Positions 10,005 to 45,940 of a DNA stretch of 56,045 bases are shown here, one piece after another. The stretch covers positions 1 to 56,045 of the forward strand of contig JAJYWK010000006.1 in assembly GCA_021791515.1 (NCBI GenBank), in the 5' to 3' direction. Position 1 is the first letter of the stretch. Each line of letters starts with the position of its first letter. The DNA is from a bacterium (GTDB taxonomy: Bacteria > Patescibacteriota > Doudnabacteria > UBA920). The notes below the pieces were generated by a model, which saw only the letters and a list, made by a program, of their open reading frames with translations, was not told the origin of the DNA and ran no database searches. A program made the translations under genes and the position numbers.

Positions 10005-10010
10005 TAATTT

Positions 10011-10072
10011 TGTCATTCCGAACTTGTTTCGGAATCCATTAAATGGGTCCTGAAATAAATTCAGGACGACAC
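10011..10072. repeat. tgtcat...gaca double-hairpin palindromic element (MITE-like family)
   Basis: tgtc-attccgaa-cttg-tttcggaat-ccattaaatgg-gtcctgaa-ataaa-ttcaggac-gaca. Relatives lie at 19709-19769, 22043-22145, 26432-26529, 28487-28601 and 45897-45940. Confidence 0.7.
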
Positions 10073-18921: not shown

Positions 18922-19719
18922 ATGGAAAAGCAGATTGTAATCAACGATAACTTAATTTCCTACAGTCAAACCGGCGAAGGGGAGCGGGCAGTGATTTTTT
19001 TGCACGGCTGGCGGAGTAATAAAGAAGTTTGGAACCAGGTAATACAGAGAATTAGAGAATTAGAGAATGAGAGAATTAGGATTTATTCCATCGATCTTCC
19101 CGGATTTGGTGGTTCATCGGCGCCTAAAACAGCTTGGTGTGTGGGGGATTACGCGGAAATTGTAAAAGGCTATATAGAAAAGTTGGAATTGAAAAATGTT
19201 ATAATCGTGGGTCATTCTTTTGGGGGAAGGATCGGCATCAAGTTAGCCGCGAACCCTTACCCGGCCTCCGGCCACCCTCTCCCAGAGGGAGAGGGAAAAT
19301 TGAAGGGGCTGATTTTGGTGGATGCGGCTGGGTTTGCCATGAATGCAAATAAAAAAACCATTATATCGGCGGCGGCAAAATTGACTAAGCCATTTTTTAA
19401 GCCAAAATTTATGCAGGGTTTGCGTAAGAAAATTTATCAAAAAATCGGCGCGGAAGACTATTTGGCCACTCCGGAATTGCAACAAACTTATGTAAAAGTT
19501 ATAAGTGAAGATTTGACTGAAGATTTAAAAAAAATAACTTTGCCAACTTTAATTATCACGGGTGAAAATGACAAAGATACGCCGATAGAGTTTGGTCGTA
19601 AAATGAATTCCTTAATTCCGAATTCCGAATTCCAAATTCTTAAAAATGCCGGGCATTATAGCTTTATTGATCAGCCGGAGGAGTTTGTAAATAATATTTT
19701 AGAATTTATGTCATCCTGA
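18922..19719 (+). CDS. alpha/beta-fold hydrolase
   Basis: HGWRSN..., nucleophile elbow VGHSFGG, C-terminal NAGHYSFIDQPEEF. It contains a hairpin-encoded insert at 19275-19295, and its stop codon lies inside the repeat at 19709-19769. Confidence 0.75.
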   Translation: MEKQIVINDNLISYSQTGEGERAVIFLHGWRSNKEVWNQVIQRIRELENERIRIYSIDLPGFGGSSAPKTAWCVGDYAEIVKGYIEKLELKNVIIVGHSFGGRIGIKLAANPYPASGHPLPEGEGKLKGLILVDAAGFAMNANKKTIISAAAKLTKPFFKPKFMQGLRKKIYQKIGAEDYLATPELQQTYVKVISEDLTEDLKKITLPTLIITGENDKDTPIEFGRKMNSLIPNSEFQILKNAGHYSFIDQPEEFVNNILEFMSS

Positions 19720-19769
19720 ACTTGTTTCAGGATCCATAAAATAGATTCCGGATCAAGTCCGGAATGATA
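19709..19769. repeat. tgtcat...atga double-hairpin palindromic element
   Basis: tgtcatcctgaa-cttg-tttcaggat-ccataaaatagat-tccgga-tcaag-tccggaatgata. It shares a 25-nt identical core (caggatccataaaatagattccgga) with 26451-26475. Confidence 0.7.
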
Positions 19770-21296
19770 AACATGGGTCTATTCAAAATCATCAAATACC
19801 AACTTTATCTTTTACAGCTGGAGAATTATGAGCTCGGGCGGTTTTGGAAATTGCTATTTAAAAAAGGTTTTTGGCCAAAAGGGGAGCAAAGAAAGCAGTT
19901 GGTTTGGACAATGAAAGCCCGGGCGGTTTTTTTGTTGGCTGTGGTTTTTCATTTTGGGCTGTCTATTATTTTGTATTGGGTGTTATCAAATGGGCTTTCA
20001 GTATTTAGTATTAAGTATTTAGTATTAAGTATTCTGATTTTTGTTTTACTGCTTACTGCTTACTGCTTACTGCTTACTGCTGCCCTGTGCCTGCTTTGGC
20101 CCATGGATTGGCTGGTTAAGCAAATAATTATTGCCAGAGCGAAATCTAAAATCAAAAGCTTAGATAAATTAAAAATTATCGGAGTGGCCGGCAGTTATGG
20201 CAAGACTACGATGAAGGAAATTTTAAAGCAGGTATTAGGCATAAGGTATAAGGTATTAGCAACGCCGGAGAGTGTAAATACGCCGGTGGGGATTGCCAGG
20301 TGGATTTTGAAAAATTTTGACGATAGAATTGAGGTGGCTATTGTAGAAATGGGGGAGCATTATGTTGGGGATATTGAGGATCTGTGTAAAATCACCCCGC
20401 CGGACATTGCGGTGGTTACGGGAATAAATGAATCACATCTGGAAAGAATGCGCACAATGGGAACCATTGTGCAAACAATTTTTGAAATTGTTTCGGGCAG
20501 TAAGGCAGGAGCTACGGTTTTACTGAATGCTGATGACGAACAAGTCATGGGGCATTATAAGGAGTTTATCTGGCCGGATCATAAGGTAGAAAGTTATCAG
20601 GCAACAGGCAGCAGGCAGCAGGTGTTTAATGTAGTAAAGTTATGCTGGGAGGCGGAGTTTGAGGGTATTGGAAAAGTTAACATTAATTTGCTAGGGCAGT
20701 ATGTGTTGGGGGATGTTGACGCGGCGGTAAAAATTGCAAAACAACTCGGAATGAGCGGCGAAGAAATAAAGCGGGGAATAGAAAAAATTCAGCCGGTTGA
20801 GCATCGGCTTCAACCCATCCCATCATCGGGGAATGTTTTAGTAATTGATGACTCCTACAACGGCAATCCGCAAGGCGCTGCCGAGGCTATTAAAGTTTTA
20901 TCGCGTTTTACTAATCGCCGGAAAGTGTATATTACTCCCGGGTTGGTGGAGATAGGTAAAGCCAGCGCAGAAATACATCGGCAGATTGGAAAAGAGTTAG
21001 CGGGAGCAGTAGATGTGGTGGTGCTCATAAAGAACAGCGTGACGTCGTATATAGCAGAGGCCTTAGCCTCAACGCTACAGACTCTCTCCCCAGGAGATGG
21101 AGAGAGTCGGAGAGAGGTCGAAAATCAAAATCAACCTCTCCCTAACCCTCTCCAATTCTTGGAGAGGGGAACTAATAGGAATCTGCAATTATATTGGTTT
21201 AACACCGCCCAGGAAGCACACCGTGCCATAAAGCACATTGTTCAGCCCAACGATGTAGTGATGTTTCAGAATGATTGGGGAGACCAATATATATAG
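19764..21296 (+). CDS. murF: UDP-N-acetylmuramoyl-tripeptide--D-alanyl-D-alanine ligase with an N-terminal transmembrane extension
   Basis: Mur ligase P-loop IIGVAGSYGKTTMKEIL, then DDSYNGNP. The first roughly 130 aa are hydrophobic. The true start may be the ATG at 19773. Confidence 0.8.
   Translation: MINMGLFKIIKYQLYLLQLENYELGRFWKLLFKKGFWPKGEQRKQLVWTMKARAVFLLAVVFHFGLSIILYWVLSNGLSVFSIKYLVLSILIFVLLLTAYCLLLTAALCLLWPMDWLVKQIIIARAKSKIKSLDKLKIIGVAGSYGKTTMKEILKQVLGIRYKVLATPESVNTPVGIARWILKNFDDRIEVAIVEMGEHYVGDIEDLCKITPPDIAVVTGINESHLERMRTMGTIVQTIFEIVSGSKAGATVLLNADDEQVMGHYKEFIWPDHKVESYQATGSRQQVFNVVKLCWEAEFEGIGKVNINLLGQYVLGDVDAAVKIAKQLGMSGEEIKRGIEKIQPVEHRLQPIPSSGNVLVIDDSYNGNPQGAAEAIKVLSRFTNRRKVYITPGLVEIGKASAEIHRQIGKELAGAVDVVVLIKNSVTSYIAEALASTLQTLSPGDGESRREVENQNQPLPNPLQFLERGTNRNLQLYWFNTAQEAHRAIKHIVQPNDVVMFQNDWGDQYI
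20046..20080 (+). repeat. perfect heptanucleotide tandem repeat (ttactgc x5) inside the murF 5' region
   Basis: Read directly from the sequence. It is preceded by a 14-mer tandem repeat (gtatttagtattaa x2 plus a partial copy) at 20001-20033. Confidence 0.85.
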
Positions 21297-21320: not shown

Positions 21321-22568
21321 ATGAAAAACTTGATAAAGAAAATTTTTAAACCAAGGGTGAAGTACCAGCCGCTTATTGAAGTTCGGGTTTTCAAGGATAG
21401 CTTACTGCACAATCTAAAACAATTTCAGTCTACTTATCCCAATTTGCAAATTGCTCCGGTATTAAAAAGCAACGCATATGGCCACGGGCTGTGGCAGGTA
21501 GCGCAAGTTTTTGACAAGCAAGGCTGTCCATTTTTTGTGGCTGATTCTTTTTATGAAGCGCTGACTTTGCGCCAGAACGGCATTCAAACCAAAATTTTAA
21601 TTTTGGGGTATGTAAGGCCAAAAGAACTTTTAGAAGAAAAAATAAAAAATGTTAGTGCGTGCATAATTAGTTTGGGTCAATTGAAATTTATTTCGGAGAA
21701 TTTAAAAAAGCCGAAAAATTTCCATCTCAAATTAGATACCGGCATGCATCGGCAGGGCGTCTTAATTAGTGAAGTTGGCGAAGCAATAGGTTTAATCAAA
21801 AAAAATCAGAATATTATTTTAGAAGGCGTATGTAGCCATTTCGCGGATGCGGATGGTGAATCATCTGGGTTTACTAATCAGCAAATCACGGAATGGAACA
21901 AAGCGGGGAAAATTTTTAAACAAAATTTTCCGACTATTAAATATTTTCATTTATCCAATACGGCTGGGACTTATTTTAAAGCTGGTAATGCCAACGTTGC
22001 AAGGGTAGGAATTGGGCTTTATGGAATTAATGCATCCCTTGTGTCATTCCGAGGGAGTCAGACGACCGAGGAATCCCTTAAATTAAATAATCGGCAGGCG
22101 TTAAGGGATGCCTCCCCCTCGGTTGCACTCGGGGTCGGTATGACACCAAGAAGTTCCCAAATATTAGATTTAAAACCAGCACTAGAGATGCGTTCAGTAA
22201 TTAGCGGGATTAAAACCATCAGTGTTGGAGAAAAGGTGGGTTATGGTATAACATTTGAAGCTAAACAGACAATGAAAATTGCTACTGTACCCGTTGGCTA
22301 TTATGAGGGGATTGATCGCCGTTTGTCTAATATTGGATTTGTTAAAATTGGCCAAACTTTTTGTCCAATAATTGGCCGGGTAAGTATGAATATCTCATCT
22401 ATTGATGTAAGTGAGGCCGGCGATGTACAATTAGGGCAGGAAGTAGTGGTAATTAGTAATAAGAAAGAAGATAAAAATTCGGTGGAAAATATAGCCAAGC
22501 TTTGCGGTTGCATCCCATACGAAATTTTGGTTCATATCCCGTCAAATCTAAGAAGAATTATAAAATAG
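21321..22568 (+). CDS. alr: alanine racemase (carrying an in-frame palindromic insert)
   Basis: PLP-lysine motif APVLKSNAYGHG; C-terminal GYYEGIDRRLSN...GRVSMN. At 415 aa it is longer than usual because of the element at 22043-22145. Confidence 0.85.
   Translation: MKNLIKKIFKPRVKYQPLIEVRVFKDSLLHNLKQFQSTYPNLQIAPVLKSNAYGHGLWQVAQVFDKQGCPFFVADSFYEALTLRQNGIQTKILILGYVRPKELLEEKIKNVSACIISLGQLKFISENLKKPKNFHLKLDTGMHRQGVLISEVGEAIGLIKKNQNIILEGVCSHFADADGESSGFTNQQITEWNKAGKIFKQNFPTIKYFHLSNTAGTYFKAGNANVARVGIGLYGINASLVSFRGSQTTEESLKLNNRQALRDASPSVALGVGMTPRSSQILDLKPALEMRSVISGIKTISVGEKVGYGITFEAKQTMKIATVPVGYYEGIDRRLSNIGFVKIGQTFCPIIGRVSMNISSIDVSEAGDVQLGQEVVVISNKKEDKNSVENIAKLCGCIPYEILVHIPSNLRRIIK
22043..22145. mobile_element. 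tgtcat...atgaca palindromic element inserted in frame in alr
   Basis: tgtcattccgaggg...gaggaatccctta-aattaaataatcggcaggcg-ttaagggatgcctcc...ggtatgaca. It shares termini and the (t/a)ccctta...ttaaggga core with the intergenic copy at 28487-28601. Confidence 0.65.
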
Positions 22569-22571
22569 ATT

Positions 22572-23765
22572 ATGAATACAGAATCTAGAATGCAGAATAT
22601 TGGCGTGTTTTTTGGTTCCGGCAGTGCCGAGCATGACATTTCCATTATTACCGCCCAACTCATCATCGCCGGGCTTAAGGGTTTAAATTATTCAGTTGTG
22701 CCGGTTTATATTACGAAAGCCGGAAAATGGATGATTAGCGAGGATTTGGGAAATTTAAAATTGTTTACCGACCCGGATAAAAAAGTTGATGAGGAGAATC
22801 GGTTCGCGCAGTATTATTTGGATATGGAAGAGAGCAAGGGGAAAATGGTATTTAAAAAAAAAGGGTTATTTGGCAAATCAATCACAATTGATCTGGCTTT
22901 CCCGGCTCTGCATGGAACGTATGGTGAAGACGGCACCATTCAGGGGTTGTTTGAAATGTTTGGTATTCCTTACGTGGGTTGCGGCGTGCCGGCTTCGGCA
23001 ATTTCTATGGATAAGGCGCTGACGAAGATTGTGATGAAAGAAGCCGGGGTGCCGACTACAAAGTTTGTGCATTTTACAAAGGTTGACTGGGAAAAAAATA
23101 GAGAATTAGAGATGCGGAGAATTAGAGAGTTGGTATTTCCTGTTTTTGTAAAGCCGGTCCATCTTGGATCTTCAATCGGAATTGGCAAAGCCAAAGATGA
23201 AAAGGAATTGGAGCAAAAAATAGAAGTGGCTTTGTATTACGATAACAAGGTTTTAGTGGAAGAAGCGGTAGAAAATTTAATGGATGTAACTTGCTGTGTC
23301 ATCGGCAACGGGGAACTTACCGCTTCGGTTCTTCAGGAATCTCTGTTTGCCAAGGATATGTTTGATTTTAAAGATAAATATTTGAGTGAAGGCGGGGCGC
23401 AATTGGGCAAAGGGCAAAACAGTTTAGTTATTCCGGCTCGACTGGATGAAGCCACAACATCAGCTATTCAAAATACCGCCAAAGCGGTTTATAAAGCCTT
23501 GGATTGCAGTGGCATCGCGCGCGTGGATTTTTTGTTTGACAAACAGTCTAAGCAATTTTTTGCCAACGAGGTTAATCCGTTGCCGGGTACCTTGTATCAT
23601 CACTTGTGGAAGGCGAGCGGCATTGAACTTAATCAGCTGCTCACGATGTTAATTCAATTTGCGGAAGAAAAATCTAAAGAAAAGCGGTCGGTAAATTATA
23701 CTTTTGAATCCAGCGTGCTAAAAAATTTGGGCAAAGGCAAAATGTCCAAATTAAAATTGGGTTAA
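22572..23765 (+). CDS. ddl: D-alanine--D-alanine ligase
   Basis: GSGSAEHDISI..., LHGTYGEDGTIQGLFEM..., FVKPVHLGSSIGI, EVNPLPG (ATP-grasp). Confidence 0.9.
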   Translation: MNTESRMQNIGVFFGSGSAEHDISIITAQLIIAGLKGLNYSVVPVYITKAGKWMISEDLGNLKLFTDPDKKVDEENRFAQYYLDMEESKGKMVFKKKGLFGKSITIDLAFPALHGTYGEDGTIQGLFEMFGIPYVGCGVPASAISMDKALTKIVMKEAGVPTTKFVHFTKVDWEKNRELEMRRIRELVFPVFVKPVHLGSSIGIGKAKDEKELEQKIEVALYYDNKVLVEEAVENLMDVTCCVIGNGELTASVLQESLFAKDMFDFKDKYLSEGGAQLGKGQNSLVIPARLDEATTSAIQNTAKAVYKALDCSGIARVDFLFDKQSKQFFANEVNPLPGTLYHHLWKASGIELNQLLTMLIQFAEEKSKEKRSVNYTFESSVLKNLGKGKMSKLKLG

Positions 23766-24394: not shown

Positions 24395-24436
24395 CTTTAT
24401 ACCTTCTATTGACGATCGTCAATAGAAGGTATAAAG
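24395..24436. promoter_or_regulatory. 42-bp perfect palindrome (operator and/or terminator candidate)
   Basis: ctttataccttctattgacgatcgtcaatagaaggtataaag is its own reverse complement. It lies between the rnhB stop and the start of the PaaX-like gene. Confidence 0.6.
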
Positions 24437-25012: not shown

Positions 25013-25046
25013 ATACCATTTATAGACGATCGTCAATTGAAGGTAT
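25013..25046. promoter_or_regulatory. second, imperfect copy of the gacgatcgtc-centred palindrome
   Basis: ataccatttatagacgatcgtcaattgaaggtat, immediately after the PaaX-like gene. Confidence 0.5.
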
Positions 25047-25107
25047 ATTTGGTTTTACGGATTTTTCTATTTTTTATGTGGGTTTTTTGTTATAATAGGT
25101 GAGGTTT

Positions 25108-25198
25108 GGAGAGGTACCGAAGTGGTCATAACGGGACGGTCTCGAAAACCGTTTGCTCCGCAAGGGGCCCGAGGGTTCGAATCCCTCCCTCTCCGCCA
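25108..25198 (+). tRNA. tRNA-Ser(CGA), type II
   Basis: ggagagg...acggt-ctCGAaa-accgt, long variable arm, gaggg-ttcgaat-ccctc-cctctcc-g-cca. Confidence 0.85.
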
Positions 25199-26364: not shown

Positions 26365-26431
26365 TCGGTGAGTTGGAGAATCAAAAGTTGGAAGGTATAA
26401 AAATTAATCGTTTAATTAAGTTTTATAATTT

Positions 26432-26529
26432 TGTCATCCTGAATTTATTTCAGGATCCATAAAATAGATTCCGGAACCCCAGTAGTAGAACCTTCGGTTC
26501 ACTACGGGGCAGGCAAGTCCGGAATGACA
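26432..26529. repeat. tgtcat...atgaca element with a nested CCCC...GGGG hairpin (26477-26509)
   Basis: The backbone matches 19709-19769, but the tccgga/tccgga hairpin loop is occupied by ccccagtagtagaaccttcggttcactacgggg. Confidence 0.75.
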
Positions 26530-26539
26530 CATAATACAT

Positions 26540-27853
26540 ATGCAAAAAAAATATTACGGAACGCAGACAGAAAAGGCCATAAAAAATTTCCCTTTTTCTT
26601 TTCGCAAACTTCCAAAAGAATTTTTTTATACTATTACGGAGATTAAAAAAGCCTCGGCCATTGCTCACGCCAGAGTGGGAGAATTAGACAACAAAAGAAA
26701 AATTGCCATTGTAAAAGCCTGCGACGAAATTTTGGCCGGTAAAATGGACGCGCAGTTCGTCTTGCCGGCTTTTCAGGGCGGCGCCGGAACGTCTAACCAC
26801 ATGAATGTTAATGAAGTTATTGCCGGCCTGGCAACGGAAATTTTGCAAAAAACCGCGGTGCACCCAAACGACCACGTAAACATGTCCGAGTCTACCAACG
26901 ACGTAATGCCCTCGGCCTTAAAAATTATCGCTTATCGTTTAAGCCAAAGATTTTTAGGCACAATGGATGTTTTTATTAAAACTTTGGAAAACAAAGCCAA
27001 AGAGTTTAAGGATGTTTATAAATTGGGCCGAACGCATATGCAGGATGCCGTGCCGATTACTTTGGGCGGGGAGTTTACCGCTTACGCGGAATACGCTAGG
27101 CGCGGCAAAGAGCGGATAGAGGCGGCCATGAAAAATATTTTGGAATTAAATTTGGGCGGCTCCGCGGTGGGCAATTCCATAAACGCTTCGCCAAAGTACA
27201 TTAGTAATTTTTATAAAGAGCTGCAAAAAATTACCAAGTTGCCGTTTAGGCCGGCTAAAAATTTAATGTCTAAAACCAGCAGTACCACGGATTTGCTGTG
27301 GCTGTCGCAAAGTTTGACCGCTTTTTGCGCGGACCTTTCTAAAATTTCCAATGATTTGCGCTGGCTTTCGGCCGGGCCCAAGGGCGGCATTGGAGAAATT
27401 TCCATGCCGGAGCTGCAGGCCGGCTCTTCCATAATGCCGGGGAAAGTTAATCCGGTGCTTAGCGAGGCTGTTAGCCAACTTTATTTTTTGGTTTCCGGCA
27501 ACACCTTAACCATTGAGCACGCCTCGGAAGGCTCGCAAATGGAACTTAATGTTATGCTGCCTATTATGACCGACCGGCTGATTGAATCCTTAAAAATTAT
27601 GGACGAGCTTTTGCTGCAATTTTCCGCTAGGTGCGTGGCCGGCATTAAAGCCAACAAAAAACGCTGCAGAGAGCTGCTAGAAAATTCCACGGCCTATTCC
27701 ACGCTATTAACTCCAGTTTTGGGTTATGATGTAGTTTCCGCGGCGGTAAAAGAATCTTTAAAAACCAACCAAACTTTACGGGAAGTGATTGTGGGGCAAA
27801 AACTTTTAAGCAATAAAGATTTTGATAAAGCAGTTAATTCATTTCGGCCATAA
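26540..27853 (+). CDS. class II fumarase / aspartate ammonia-lyase family protein
   Basis: Signature GSSIMPGKVNP; N-terminal YYGTQTEKAIKNFPFS; TNDVMPSA. Confidence 0.8.
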   Translation: MQKKYYGTQTEKAIKNFPFSFRKLPKEFFYTITEIKKASAIAHARVGELDNKRKIAIVKACDEILAGKMDAQFVLPAFQGGAGTSNHMNVNEVIAGLATEILQKTAVHPNDHVNMSESTNDVMPSALKIIAYRLSQRFLGTMDVFIKTLENKAKEFKDVYKLGRTHMQDAVPITLGGEFTAYAEYARRGKERIEAAMKNILELNLGGSAVGNSINASPKYISNFYKELQKITKLPFRPAKNLMSKTSSTTDLLWLSQSLTAFCADLSKISNDLRWLSAGPKGGIGEISMPELQAGSSIMPGKVNPVLSEAVSQLYFLVSGNTLTIEHASEGSQMELNVMLPIMTDRLIESLKIMDELLLQFSARCVAGIKANKKRCRELLENSTAYSTLLTPVLGYDVVSAAVKESLKTNQTLREVIVGQKLLSNKDFDKAVNSFRP

Positions 27854-28470
27854 TGCCATATTTAGATTTAAACCACAGTTTTAATAACAATATGCCGGTA
27901 TTTCCGGGCGACGGTGCGACAGAGCTGATTCAGGTGTCTGATGTGAGCAAAGACGGCATCGCTAACCACCTGCTTAAGACTTCTATGCATGTGGGTACTC
28001 ATATGGACGGGCCGGCGCATATGCTTTTGGGCGGTAAGCCCTTGAGTGAATATCCGGCAGAAAAATTTTTTGGGCGGGGCGTAATAATAGACGCGCGGGG
28101 GAAGTCGGCGGCCGATGCCGAATTGCTGTCTAGCGTGCAAATTCAAAAAGGGGATGTAGTATTAGTTTGTTTTAGCTGGTCTACGGAATTTTTTGAGGAA
28201 GATTATTATTTAAATTATCCGGAAATTAGCGAGAGTTTTGCCGCGCGGCTGGTTGAACTGGGCGCTTCAATTATCGGCATGGATACCCCCAGCCCCGACC
28301 GCGCGCCTTACAGCGCGCATAAAATTTTGTTAAACGGCGATATTTTAATAATTGAAAATTTAACTAATTTGGAACAGCTAATCGGTCAAAAGAATTTTGA
28401 GATAATCGCCCTGCCGATGAAACTGGAAACAGATTCAGCGCCATGCAGGGTGGTGGCAAAAATCATATAG
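27853..28470 (+). CDS. cyclase-family protein (kynurenine formamidase-like)
   Basis: HVGTHMDGPAHM metal-binding motif; the ATG overlaps the upstream stop (taATG). Confidence 0.7.
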   Translation: MPYLDLNHSFNNNMPVFPGDGATELIQVSDVSKDGIANHLLKTSMHVGTHMDGPAHMLLGGKPLSEYPAEKFFGRGVIIDARGKSAADAELLSSVQIQKGDVVLVCFSWSTEFFEEDYYLNYPEISESFAARLVELGASIIGMDTPSPDRAPYSAHKILLNGDILIIENLTNLEQLIGQKNFEIIALPMKLETDSAPCRVVAKII

Positions 28471-28486
28471 AACATTCTTTAAGTTT

Positions 28487-28601
28487 TGTCATCCCGACCG
28501 ACGACGAGTGCATCCGAGGAGGAGCGGAGGGATCCCTTATCGATTGAAGTTTAAGGGATTCCCTGCCTGCCGGCAGGCAGGCTCGGTCGCTCGGAATGAC
28601 A
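28487..28601. repeat. tgtcat...atgaca palindromic element, long variant
   Basis: tgtcatcccgaccg...gagggatccctta-tcgattgaagt-ttaagggattccctgcctgccggcaggcagg...ctcggaatgaca. Confidence 0.7.
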
Positions 28602-28653: not shown

Positions 28654-29751
28654 ATGGAGCAAACAAAAAAAATCCTTATTCTTTACGCCTCGGTGGGCCT
28701 GGGGCATAAAAGCATAGCCGAGAACATCGGCTTTTATTTAGAACGGGCCGGTTTTACCGTTTGTCTTTATGACGCGCACAGGGTTGAATCGGGAAAGTTA
28801 GTTAGGTGGGCTACCAAATTTTACGGGTTTTTAATTAACCAGTTTCCGTTCGTGTGGAGTTGGCTGTATAAAACAGAGTGGTTTATTAGTTTAACTTTGC
28901 CTTATCGCACCCGGGTGGCAAAATTTCAGCATCGCAACATTTTGGAAGTTTTGGAAAAAGAACGCCCCAATTTAGTAATTTCCACCCACGTTACACCCTC
29001 GGCCGCGATGGATTATTTAAAAAAACAGGGATTGTATGCGGGCAAGTTTGGAATTACTTTCAGCGATTTTCATTTGCATCGTTTTTGGCTGTTTGATTCG
29101 GCCGATTTTTATTTAGCCAATATCCAGGAGCAAAAAGAAGAAATGATTAAACTTGGTATAAATCAAGATAAAATATTTGTTTGCGGAATAACTTTAAGGC
29201 CAAAAATAGAAGTTAATGCAGAATTAATAAAACAGAAATTAGGGATCAATTCGAACCAAAAAACATTGCTTTTGGCCAGCGGCTCACAAGGCACGGGCGT
29301 AGACCAGAATTTAATTGATGAGTTGCTGGCTAAAAGCCAGGCTAAAATAATTGTGGTATGCGGAAAAAATAAAGTGCTGTTTGAAAATTTGAGCGAACGG
29401 TATCAAAATGCCAATTGTATTATTTTGGGCTACTACAGCCCCATGGAAGAGTTGTATGCCGTGGCTGATTTATTCATTTCCAAACCCGGCGGGCTTTCCA
29501 CAGCCGAAGCCCTGAGGTATAATTTGCCGATTTTAGTTTCGCATCTTTTGCCCGGGCAGGAGGAGTTGAATTATAATTATTTGCAGGAAAAAAGCCTGGT
29601 TATGCCGGAGCCAATTAACCTTGTGTCGTCAGCCATTGAAGAATTGGAGAGCGGTGAGTTTAGGCAAAATTTAGCATCCAGCCAGGCCTTATTGGAAATT
29701 TTTATCCGTCCCGAAACCTTAATTGATGCAATTAGGAAAAGTTTGGGTTGA
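28654..29751 (+). CDS. MGDG-synthase-family glycosyltransferase (diacylglycerol glycosyltransferase-like, GT28)
   Basis: ILILYASVGLGHKSIAENI N-terminus; C-terminal FISKPGGLSTAEAL. Confidence 0.7.
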   Translation: MEQTKKILILYASVGLGHKSIAENIGFYLERAGFTVCLYDAHRVESGKLVRWATKFYGFLINQFPFVWSWLYKTEWFISLTLPYRTRVAKFQHRNILEVLEKERPNLVISTHVTPSAAMDYLKKQGLYAGKFGITFSDFHLHRFWLFDSADFYLANIQEQKEEMIKLGINQDKIFVCGITLRPKIEVNAELIKQKLGINSNQKTLLLASGSQGTGVDQNLIDELLAKSQAKIIVVCGKNKVLFENLSERYQNANCIILGYYSPMEELYAVADLFISKPGGLSTAEALRYNLPILVSHLLPGQEELNYNYLQEKSLVMPEPINLVSSAIEELESGEFRQNLASSQALLEIFIRPETLIDAIRKSLG

Positions 29752-45896: not shown

Positions 45897-45940
45897 GTCC
45901 CGAACGAAGCGAGGGATCCCTCGCTTCGTTCGGGATGACA
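45897..45940. repeat. near-perfect palindromic element of the gtc...gaca family
   Basis: gtcccgaacgaagcgagggatccctcgcttcgttcgggatgaca. Confidence 0.75.

What the first reader, a model, noticed from the sequence alone, without database searches (positions are those of the whole stretch)
22043..22145. Palindromic repeat element inserted in frame in alanine racemase
A roughly 103-nt element has termini tgtcat...atgaca and an internal core (t/a)ccctta...ttaaggga. It belongs to the same family as the intergenic copy at 28487-28601. It lies inside alr, between the conserved GIGLYGI and LKPALEMRS segments. It reads through without a stop and adds roughly 35 residues (VSFRGSQTTEESLKLNNRQALRDASPSVALGVGMTP). 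In-frame palindromic elements in essential genes are established for Rickettsia (RPEs), but I am not aware of a description for this lineage. The open question is whether the insert is tolerated as a surface loop, removed at the RNA level, or inactivating.
Basis: partly seen in the sequence, partly recalled or inferred. Interest (0 to 1): 0.65.

Follow-up and report, generated by a model that had tools for sequence, protein, structure and literature searches.

The report
Mobile palindromic repeat inside alanine racemase
A roughly 100-base hairpin-forming selfish DNA repeat has landed in frame in the only alanine racemase gene of this ultra-small (Patescibacteria) bacterium. It most likely just adds a floppy loop at the hinge between the enzyme's two domains, as the palindromic elements of Rickettsia do.

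Summary
Window 22042-22145 (TGTCAT...ATGACA) is a full-length copy of a palindromic repeat family. The 1.17-Mb genome holds about 27 near-full copies (31 loci in all). A profile built without this copy still finds it at E = 7.5e-16. The insert has 54% GC against 37% for the rest of alr.

- **Position.** It lies in frame at the N/C-domain junction of alr. Same-genus orthologues have 4 residues there; this protein has 42.
- **Frame.** The GTCAT...ATGAC unit is exactly 102 nt (34 codons), and the gene's frame is the only open one of six.
- **Not an artefact.** The same insert-bearing gene was assembled independently from at least 6 runs or assemblies.
- **Gene state.** It is the only alr, no D-amino-acid transaminase was found, and ddl and a MurF-like gene flank it. 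It keeps 103 of 105 highly conserved residues.
- **Structure.** AlphaFold2 models both domains confidently; only the insert is low-confidence.
- **Recurrence.** The same family sits in frame in TatD, PrmC and DinB here, in two genes of a congener, and at other sites of another species' alr.

Best reading: a MITE/RPE-like selfish element, translated and tolerated as a hinge loop. I found no published description for this phylum. This scan has noted the same kind of in-frame repeat in other Patescibacteria genomes.

The parts
21321..22568 (+). alr, alanine racemase ORF of 415 aa, host of the insert
   Evidence: Pfam Ala_racemase_N 2.9e-51 and Ala_racemase_C 1.2e-33. PDB alanine racemases match down to 2e-48, with the alignment broken between query 237 and about 277. 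Foldseek finds alanine racemases at TM 0.82-0.89.
22042..22145 (+). Palindromic repeat element, TGTCAT...ATGACA. The GTCAT...ATGAC unit at 22043-22144 is 102 nt, or 34 codons.
   Evidence: Leave-one-out nhmmer gives E = 7.5e-16 over the full model. GC is 53.8% against 37.1% for the rest of the gene. The RNA fold is -45.6 kcal/mol, z = -2.5. The site is empty in same-genus orthologues.
22042..22052 (+). Left terminal inverted repeat, TGTCATTCCGA
   Evidence: Family consensus is T|GTCATyCCGA.
22135..22145 (+). Right terminal inverted repeat, TCGGTATGACA (one mismatch to the consensus TCGGrATGACA)
22070..22109 (+). Conserved core GGAATCCCTTAA, a 19-nt loop, then TTAAGGGAT
   Evidence: The same core is present in 14 strict-pattern copies in the genome.
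28487..28601 (.). Intergenic copy of the same family, between ORFs 27853-28470 and 28654-29751
   Evidence: nhmmer 72-77 bits. Flanking ORFs.
22572..23765 (+). ddl, D-Ala-D-Ala ligase, directly downstream; it uses the alr product
   Evidence: Pfam Dala_Dala_lig_N and Dala_Dala_lig_C.
19764..21296 (+). MurF-like Mur ligase directly upstream. It carries an in-frame cassette of a different repeat family at about 21080-21172.
   Evidence: Pfam Mur_ligase_M and Mur_ligase_C. The C domain spans 155 residues for 123 profile positions. Palindrome CCCTCTCCAATTCTTGGAGAGGGG; 49 pattern matches (overlapping ones counted) in the genome.

Best explanation
A non-coding, hairpin-forming mobile repeat was inserted into the inter-domain linker ('hinge') codons of alr in the recent ancestry of this species.

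- **The element.** Terminal inverted repeats are T|GTCATyCCGA ... TCGGrATGAC|A, the core is GGrATCCCTTAA-loop-TTAAGGGAT, and the arms carry variable nested hairpin modules. I saw no target duplication.
- **Why it persists.** This copy is 102 nt long and open in the gene's frame, so the reading frame survived. The element is transcribed and translated as 34 extra residues that loop out between the alpha/beta barrel and the beta domain, leaving the PLP active site and the fold intact.
- **Selfish, not adaptive.** Most genic insertions are removed by selection. Only in-frame, stop-free copies at permissive loops persist.
- **Shown:** family membership, insertion relative to orthologues, frame preservation, recurrence in other genes and species, presence in several independent assemblies, and conserved catalytic residues.
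- **Inferred:** translation of the insert, enzyme activity, loop exposure, and the transposition mechanism.
For: **Family membership and foreign composition.**

**Empty site in relatives.** In 15 same-genus genomes the two Alr matches lie about 9 nt apart where this gene has 41 codons (sequences). Most of 118 orthologues are about 378-382 aa.

**Frame.** Only one of six frames through the copy is open, and it is alr's. The unit is exactly 34 codons.

**Chance of a harmless insertion.** Across the family only 22 of 120 frames are open, fewer than in shuffles (33 +/- 4.6). A random insertion would therefore be harmless in only about 6% of cases.

**Other in-frame copies.**
- Three other copies in this genome are in frame, in TatD, PrmC and DinB (insertions confirmed for TatD and DinB against PDB homologues).
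- The other 23 sit in short intergenic gaps, and none is obviously gene-breaking.
- In congener G011, 2 of 18 elements examined are in frame in long ORFs.
- Another species' alr (P0078) holds two GTCAT...ATGAC elements at other sites.
- The hinge site carries unrelated 10-27-aa inserts in 5 other orthologues.

**Need for the gene.** This is the sole PF01168 hit and there is no PF01063 (Dat) hit in a 97.7%-complete genome. alr lies between a MurF-like gene and ddl.

**No sign of decay.** It matches 103 of 105 columns that are at least 90% conserved, which is the median for the orthologue set. K49, R144, H173 and Y308 are invariant columns and R228 is at least 90% conserved.

**Structure.** AF2 mean pLDDT is 90.7. 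Only residues 241-280 are low (43-54) and the flanks score 88-98.

**Location on a solved structure.** The insertion maps just before the 241/242 domain boundary of S. aureus Alr (PMC3245724).

**Independent assemblies.** The identical insert appears in at least 6 assemblies or runs representing 3 haplotypes.
Against: - There is no RNA or protein evidence.
- alr is not universal in the genus. Three of 18 congeners (90-99% complete) gave no alr match, so the gene may be dispensable and could be at an early stage of decay.
- The strains sampled differ by only about 0.1%, so no selection test on the insert is possible.
- The hinge region influences the dimer geometry that builds the active site (PMC3245724), so a 34-aa addition could reduce activity.
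- I had no model coordinates, so solvent exposure of the loop was not measured.
- No transposase, target duplication or autonomous relative was identified.
Confidence: 0.8

Rival explanations
1. The insertion has inactivated or crippled alr. The gene is a young pseudogene that has not yet collected stops, and the cell obtains D-alanine from a host or the environment.
For: Three of 18 same-genus genomes have no detectable alr, so loss is tolerated in the lineage. The insert sits at the inter-domain hinge, which sets dimer geometry. There are no expression data.
Against: The frame is preserved and the copy is stop-free, although only about 18% of element frames are open and only a third of lengths fit. 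The gene matches 103 of 105 conserved columns, the median for orthologues. ddl and the MurF-like gene next door are intact. There is no other route to D-Ala. The same site and other sites carry inserts in many otherwise intact orthologues. AF2 folds both domains normally.
Confidence: 0.1
2. The insert has been co-opted: the extra hinge loop gives Alr a new property, such as regulation, partner binding or altered dimerisation, and is now kept by selection.
For: The insert is fixed and identical in all sampled haplotypes. The hinge is a recurrent insertion site.
Against: The insert is absent from all congeners. The peptide depends on an arbitrary frame: VIPS, RHSE and SFR readings of the same terminus occur in different genes. 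The region has low pLDDT. The haplotypes are only 0.1% diverged, so identity carries no information.
Confidence: 0.05
3. The element is not translated. It is removed from the mRNA, or ribosomes bypass the hairpin, so that an insert-free Alr is made.
For: The element forms a strong hairpin in the mRNA (-45.6 kcal/mol). A TCC codon lies shortly before the element and another shortly after it, which could serve as take-off and landing codons (my inference).
Against: The insert is open and in phase, which would be unnecessary if it were skipped. No Rfam intron or other RNA family matches it. There is no stop codon at the putative take-off site. 37-42 residues is far too short for an intein. The other in-gene copies are also open in phase.
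Confidence: 0.03
4. The segment is a native lineage-specific loop, or an assembly chimera, unrelated to mobile repeats.
For: None found.
Against: Leave-one-out profile E = 7.5e-16. GC jumps from 37% to 54%. All congeners lack the segment. The gene was assembled independently in at least 6 runs or assemblies.
Confidence: 0.01

Closest known systems
Rickettsia palindromic elements (RPE-1 to RPE-10; Ogata et al. 2000 Science 290:347, as summarised in PMC10969869)
   Same: Both are palindromic, multi-copy repeats of about 100-150 bp in a reduced genome. Both are found between genes and also in frame inside unrelated housekeeping genes, where they add a peptide without breaking the frame. The inserts are predicted to be compatible with the host protein's fold.
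   Different: The lineage differs (Patescibacteria, not Rickettsia) and so does the consensus. The architecture is modular, with variable nested hairpins between fixed termini and a fixed core. All three frames of the terminus are used in different genes, so there is no single conserved element-encoded peptide. The family is depleted in open frames, not enriched. Transcription and translation are not shown here.
Bacterial MITEs that make in-frame fusions (intragenic ERIC, Coxiella QMITE1, Anabaena MITEs; PMC10969869, PMC5896051)
   Same: Small size, terminal inverted repeats, no coding capacity of their own, many copies, and occasional in-frame intragenic copies.
   Different: No target-site duplication is visible. 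No autonomous insertion sequence with the same ends exists in this genome.
REP/BIME/REPIN elements mobilised by RAYT (Y1 HUH) transposases, and ORF-less IS200/IS605 derivatives
   Same: Both are hairpin-based and lack target duplication. The genome encodes three Y1_Tnp proteins, one of them RAYT-like.
   Different: The elements are longer and composite, and they lack the GTAG head. The Y1 genes are not flanked by GTCAT termini. REPs are by definition extragenic. No link to a transposase is shown.
Coding palindromes in Nematomorpha mitochondrial genes (PMC6649704)
   Same: Long inverted repeats are embedded in, and translated with, conserved protein genes.
   Different: Those are organellar, are perfect long palindromes in which both arms are coding, and have a different origin.

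Membership tests
Rickettsia palindromic elements (RPE) | Palindromic repeat of about 100-150 bp in many copies per genome | tested here: met
   104 nt; 27 near-full copies and 31 loci in 1.17 Mb; hairpin of -45.6 kcal/mol.
Rickettsia palindromic elements (RPE) | In-frame copies inside several unrelated protein-coding genes | tested here: met
   alr, TatD, PrmC and DinB in this genome; two more genes in congener G011.
Rickettsia palindromic elements (RPE) | A conserved element-encoded peptide read in one frame | tested here: not met
   The left terminus is read as VIPS (PrmC, DinB), RHSE (TatD) and SFR (alr). Open frames are fewer than in shuffles.
Rickettsia palindromic elements (RPE) | Sequence homology to RPE consensus sequences and occurrence in Rickettsia | not testable with these tools
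   No RPE sequences or Rickettsia collection were available. The host is a Doudnabacteria-like Patescibacterium, so membership in the strict sense is excluded by lineage. The relation is analogy.
Rickettsia palindromic elements (RPE) | Insert retained in mRNA and protein, on the protein surface away from the active site | tested here: inconclusive
   AF2 models the insert as a low-pLDDT stretch (43-54) between two confident domains, at the domain junction. RNA and peptide tests were impossible.
MITE | Terminal inverted repeats, small size, no ORF, multiple copies | tested here: met
   T|GTCATyCCGA / TCGGrATGAC|A; 89-173 nt.
MITE | Target-site duplication | tested here: not met
   The flanks of 20 copies show no direct repeat. 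Three of four in-gene units are exact multiples of 3 without any duplication.
MITE | A parent insertion sequence with the same ends | tested here: not met
   No terminus pair 300-4000 nt apart encloses a transposase in this genome. Other genomes were not searched.
REP/REPIN-RAYT | A cognate RAYT gene flanked by the repeats | tested here: not met
   Three Y1_Tnp genes were found. Their flanks lack the family's GTCATyCCGA termini.
Alanine racemase (PLP fold type III), the host gene | N-terminal barrel and C-terminal domain with PLP-binding Lys and catalytic Tyr | tested here: met
   Pfam domains. K49 and Y308 are invariant columns. Foldseek TM 0.82-0.89 to Alr structures.
Self-splicing intron or intein (removal of the insert) | Group I/II intron structure, or an intein of at least about 130 aa with splice-junction residues | tested here: not met
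   No Rfam match on 22042-22145 at E <= 1. The insert is 34 residues.

The most novel reading that the evidence does not exclude
The hairpin is not part of the mature enzyme. Ribosomes bypass it, or the mRNA is processed and rejoined, so that this family would be a bacterial counterpart of the bypassed 'byp' insertions of yeast mitochondria or T4 gene 60.
Probability: 0.03. Interest if true: 0.9.

Novelty: new member of a known kind. Interest (0 to 1): 0.5.

Why it matters
Selfish palindromes that survive inside essential genes are a textbook oddity of Rickettsia. This case shows the same outcome in an unrelated lineage with a reduced genome, and it has three notable features.
- The element family occurs patchily across the phylum: 23 of 146 genomes of the order and 13 of 401 sampled across the phylum.
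- It hits the same enzyme repeatedly at a few permissive sites.
- It shares genomes with other families that behave in the same way.

Three practical consequences follow.
- Annotation: unexplained 10-50-aa 'lineage-specific loops' in Patescibacteria proteins are often mobile DNA.
- Protein engineering: the insertion sites give a natural map of permissive loops in Alr and other enzymes.
- Evolution: it bears on how selfish DNA persists where intergenic space is scarce.

The alr case offers a simple functional test by complementation of a D-alanine auxotroph.

Tried and rejected
- **Mobilising enzyme.** The genome has two IS200-type TnpA genes and one RAYT-like gene. Their flanks carry other hairpins and not the family's GTCATyCCGA termini. 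No insertion sequence with the same ends was found.
- **Target duplication.** None is visible. A possible TCCC repeat around the alr copy is too weak to count.
- **'The family evolved to be coding-competent'.** Rejected, because open frames are fewer than in dinucleotide shuffles (22 against 33 +/- 4.6).
- **Rfam.** Nothing matches the element.
- **Literature.** Four full-text searches found no description for Patescibacteria/CPR. A negative result in an open-access library is not proof of absence.
- **Structure.** No model coordinates were available, so I could not measure loop exposure or distance to the active site.
- **Selection on the insert.** The available haplotypes differ by 0-2 SNPs in alr, which is too few.

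Full report
**Observation**

- The internal core is GGAATCCCTTAA (22070-22081) and TTAAGGGAT (22101-22109).
- The intergenic copy at 28487-28601 has the same termini and core (alignment A1).
- The terminal decamer GTCATYCYGA occurs 8 times in the window against 0.15 expected.
- The RNA of 22035-22155 folds into a long imperfect hairpin of -45.6 kcal/mol, z = -2.5.

**Host gene**

- ORF 21321-22568 (415 aa) is alanine racemase. Pfam Ala_racemase_N covers residues 26-237 and Ala_racemase_C covers 288-413.
- Solved alanine racemases align in two blocks that break between query 237 and about 277.
- The closest proteins in a 5.8-billion-protein collection are Candidatus Doudnabacteria/Patescibacteria alanine racemases. 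They are only 58-64% identical and mostly 378-382 aa long.
- In 15 same-genus genomes the two Alr matches lie about 9 nt apart where this gene has 41 codons.
- The relatives' sequences read GINxS-PxxK-LxLKPALEM. The linker between S239 and L282 is therefore 42 residues here and 4 in relatives.

**The repeat family**

- The whole genome is 1.17 Mb in 70 contigs, 43.6% GC and 97.7% complete.
- A strict terminus search found 20 paired elements of 61-173 nt. nhmmer found 31 loci, 27 of them near full length.
- The architecture is T|GTCATyCCGA, then a variable nested hairpin module (for example CCTGCCTGCCGGCAGGCAGG), then GGrATCCCTTAA, a loop, TTAAGGGAT, a second variable module, and TCGGrATGAC|A.
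- No flanking direct repeat is visible.
- A profile built from 17 copies without the alr copy hits 22041-22146 over the full model at E = 7.5e-16.
- The insert has 53.8% GC against 37.1% for the rest of alr.
- No Rfam family matches the element.

**Frame**

- The GTCAT...ATGAC unit at 22043-22144 is exactly 102 nt.
- Joining the flanks gives ...TCC CTT GT|A CCA AGA..., which reads S L V P R S S Q I L D L. The element therefore adds 34 codons to a linker that was probably already a few residues longer than in congeners.
- Only one of the six frames through the copy is open, and it is alr's frame.
- Across 20 full copies only 22 of 120 frames are open, fewer than in dinucleotide shuffles (33 +/- 4.6). 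The conserved motifs themselves create TGA and TAA in some frames.
- The family is therefore not built to be coding-competent. A random genic insertion would be harmless in roughly 0.18 x 1/3, or about 6%, of cases.

**Other in-gene copies**

- Four of the 27 copies lie in frame in the middle of long conserved ORFs:
  - alr;
  - a TatD hydrolase (C62:53086-53216);
  - PrmC/HemK (C56:11115-11204);
  - DinB/Pol IV (C43:11449-11604).
- Alignment to solved homologues shows about 50 and 62 extra residues at the TatD and DinB inserts.
- The same terminus is read as VIPS, RHSE or SFR in different genes, so no fixed peptide is encoded.
- Three of the four in-gene units are multiples of 3 (102, 90, 156). 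Among the other copies 6 of 16 are, which is the chance level.
- The remaining copies sit in short gaps between complete ORFs. I saw no obviously broken gene.

**Beyond this genome**

- The half-element pattern occurs in 23 of 146 genomes of the order (20 of 94 in the family) and in 13 of 401 genomes sampled across the phylum. The reversed-pattern controls gave zero hits.
- Several half-elements are identical between species.
- In congener G011, 2 of 18 elements examined are in frame in long ORFs, one ABC-F-like and one helicase-like by their motifs; neither was annotated.
- Among 118 Alr orthologues, about 25 carry inserts of at least 8 aa at six hot spots.
- At the DNA level both inserts of P0078 are GTCAT...ATGAC elements of the same superfamily, at two other sites of alr.
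- The hinge site used here also holds 10-27-aa inserts in five other orthologues.

**Is the gene alive?**

- It is the only PF01168 hit, and there is no fold-type-IV aminotransferase (Dat) hit.
- It lies between a MurF-like ligase and ddl.
- It matches 103 of 105 columns that are at least 90% conserved in the other 117 orthologues, which is exactly the median of the set. The two differences are conservative, L to F and V to A.
- K49, R144, H173 and Y308 sit in invariant columns, and R228 in a column that is at least 90% conserved.
- AlphaFold2 gives mean pLDDT 90.7 and pTM 0.87. Only residues 241-280 are low (block means 54, 49, 43, 52) and the flanks score 88-98.
- Foldseek finds alanine racemases at TM 0.82-0.89.
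- By the alignment to S. aureus Alr, the insert lies just before that enzyme's 241/242 domain boundary (PMC3245724).
- A caveat: three of 18 congeners show no alr, so the gene is not indispensable in the genus.

**Not an artefact**

The window's exact protein (P0121) and a one-residue variant (P0001, E365G) were assembled independently in GCA_027424835.1, ERZ27237183 and four SRA runs. They differ by 0-2 SNPs in alr and none in the insert. The 17-kb neighbourhoods are 99.89% identical.

**Mechanism**

- I could not identify how the element moves.
- The genome has two IS200-type TnpA genes and one RAYT-like gene. Their flanks lack the family's GTCATyCCGA termini.
- No insertion sequence with the same ends exists in this genome.
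- The absence of a target duplication and the hairpin ends make a single-strand (HUH-type) or recombinational route plausible. This is inference.

**Verdict**

- This is a real in-frame insertion of a MITE/RPE-like palindromic element. It is most likely translated and tolerated as a disordered hinge loop (0.8).
- The rivals are young inactivation (0.1), co-option (0.05), and RNA-level removal or bypass (0.03).
- Full-text searches found RPEs, Coxiella MITEs, intragenic ERIC and mitochondrial coding palindromes, but nothing for Patescibacteria.
- Earlier notes of this scan report the same kind of in-frame repeat in other Patescibacteria genomes and in TatD and purH of this genome. I re-derived the TatD case independently.

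Noticed in passing
window 21080-21172 (inside ORF 19764-21296): The MurF-like ligase upstream of alr carries an in-frame cassette of a different repeat family (GACTCTCTCC..GGAGAGAGTC, then AACCTCTCCC..CCCTCTCCAATTCTTGGAGAGGGG). It is read as ...SPGDGESRREVENQNQPLPNPLQFLERG.... The loose palindrome pattern matches 49 times in the genome (overlapping matches counted), and the Mur_ligase_C match spans 155 residues for 123 profile positions.
   Followed up: partly
window 10008-10069, 19706-19767, 26429-26490 (also 7664, 45912-45940): A shorter repeat family (about 62 nt; TTTTGTCATyCyGAACTTGTTTCrGrATCCAT...) shares the GTCATyCyGA terminus with the alr element. It may be a sister family that uses the same ends.
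   Followed up: no
G000 C62:52750-53754(-), C56:10743-11810(+), C43:10528-12192(-): TatD, PrmC/HemK and DinB/Pol IV each hold an in-frame copy of the same element family. PrmC also has a second insert of the PLPxxGRG type (LLPLTPSPLPPNFAKATMGRRGRGIKGEGA).
   Followed up: partly
Alr orthologues P0026, P0029, P0034, P0037, P0041, P0048, P0050, P0055, P0060, P0070, P0089, P0096 (alignment A3, query position about 68): Twelve of 118 orthologues carry 10-28-aa inserts of the '..SPLPQRGRG..' or '..SPLKGEEN..' type at one site after ILDxQ. This looks like a second repeat family with its own hot spot in alr.
   Followed up: no
G000 C7:9073-9501, C56:4303-4737, C35:22588-23454: There are two IS200-type TnpA genes flanked by their own GGAAACCCCGG... 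hairpins, and one RAYT-like Y1 gene. None is flanked by the GTCATyCCGA termini.
   Followed up: partly
window 25108-25195: The Rfam tRNA match spans 88 nt for a 71-position model, so this tRNA gene may hold an insertion. Earlier scan notes report nested tRNA genes elsewhere in this window.
   Followed up: no
window 24398-24433 and 25013-25047: A 35-nt perfect-type palindrome (ATACCTTCTATTGACGATCGTCAATAGAAGGTAT) occurs twice, 614 nt apart, at 89% identity.
   Followed up: no
same-genus genomes G005, G011, G012: No alr was detected in three of 18 congeners (93%, 90% and 99% complete), so alanine racemase is not universal in the genus.
   Followed up: no
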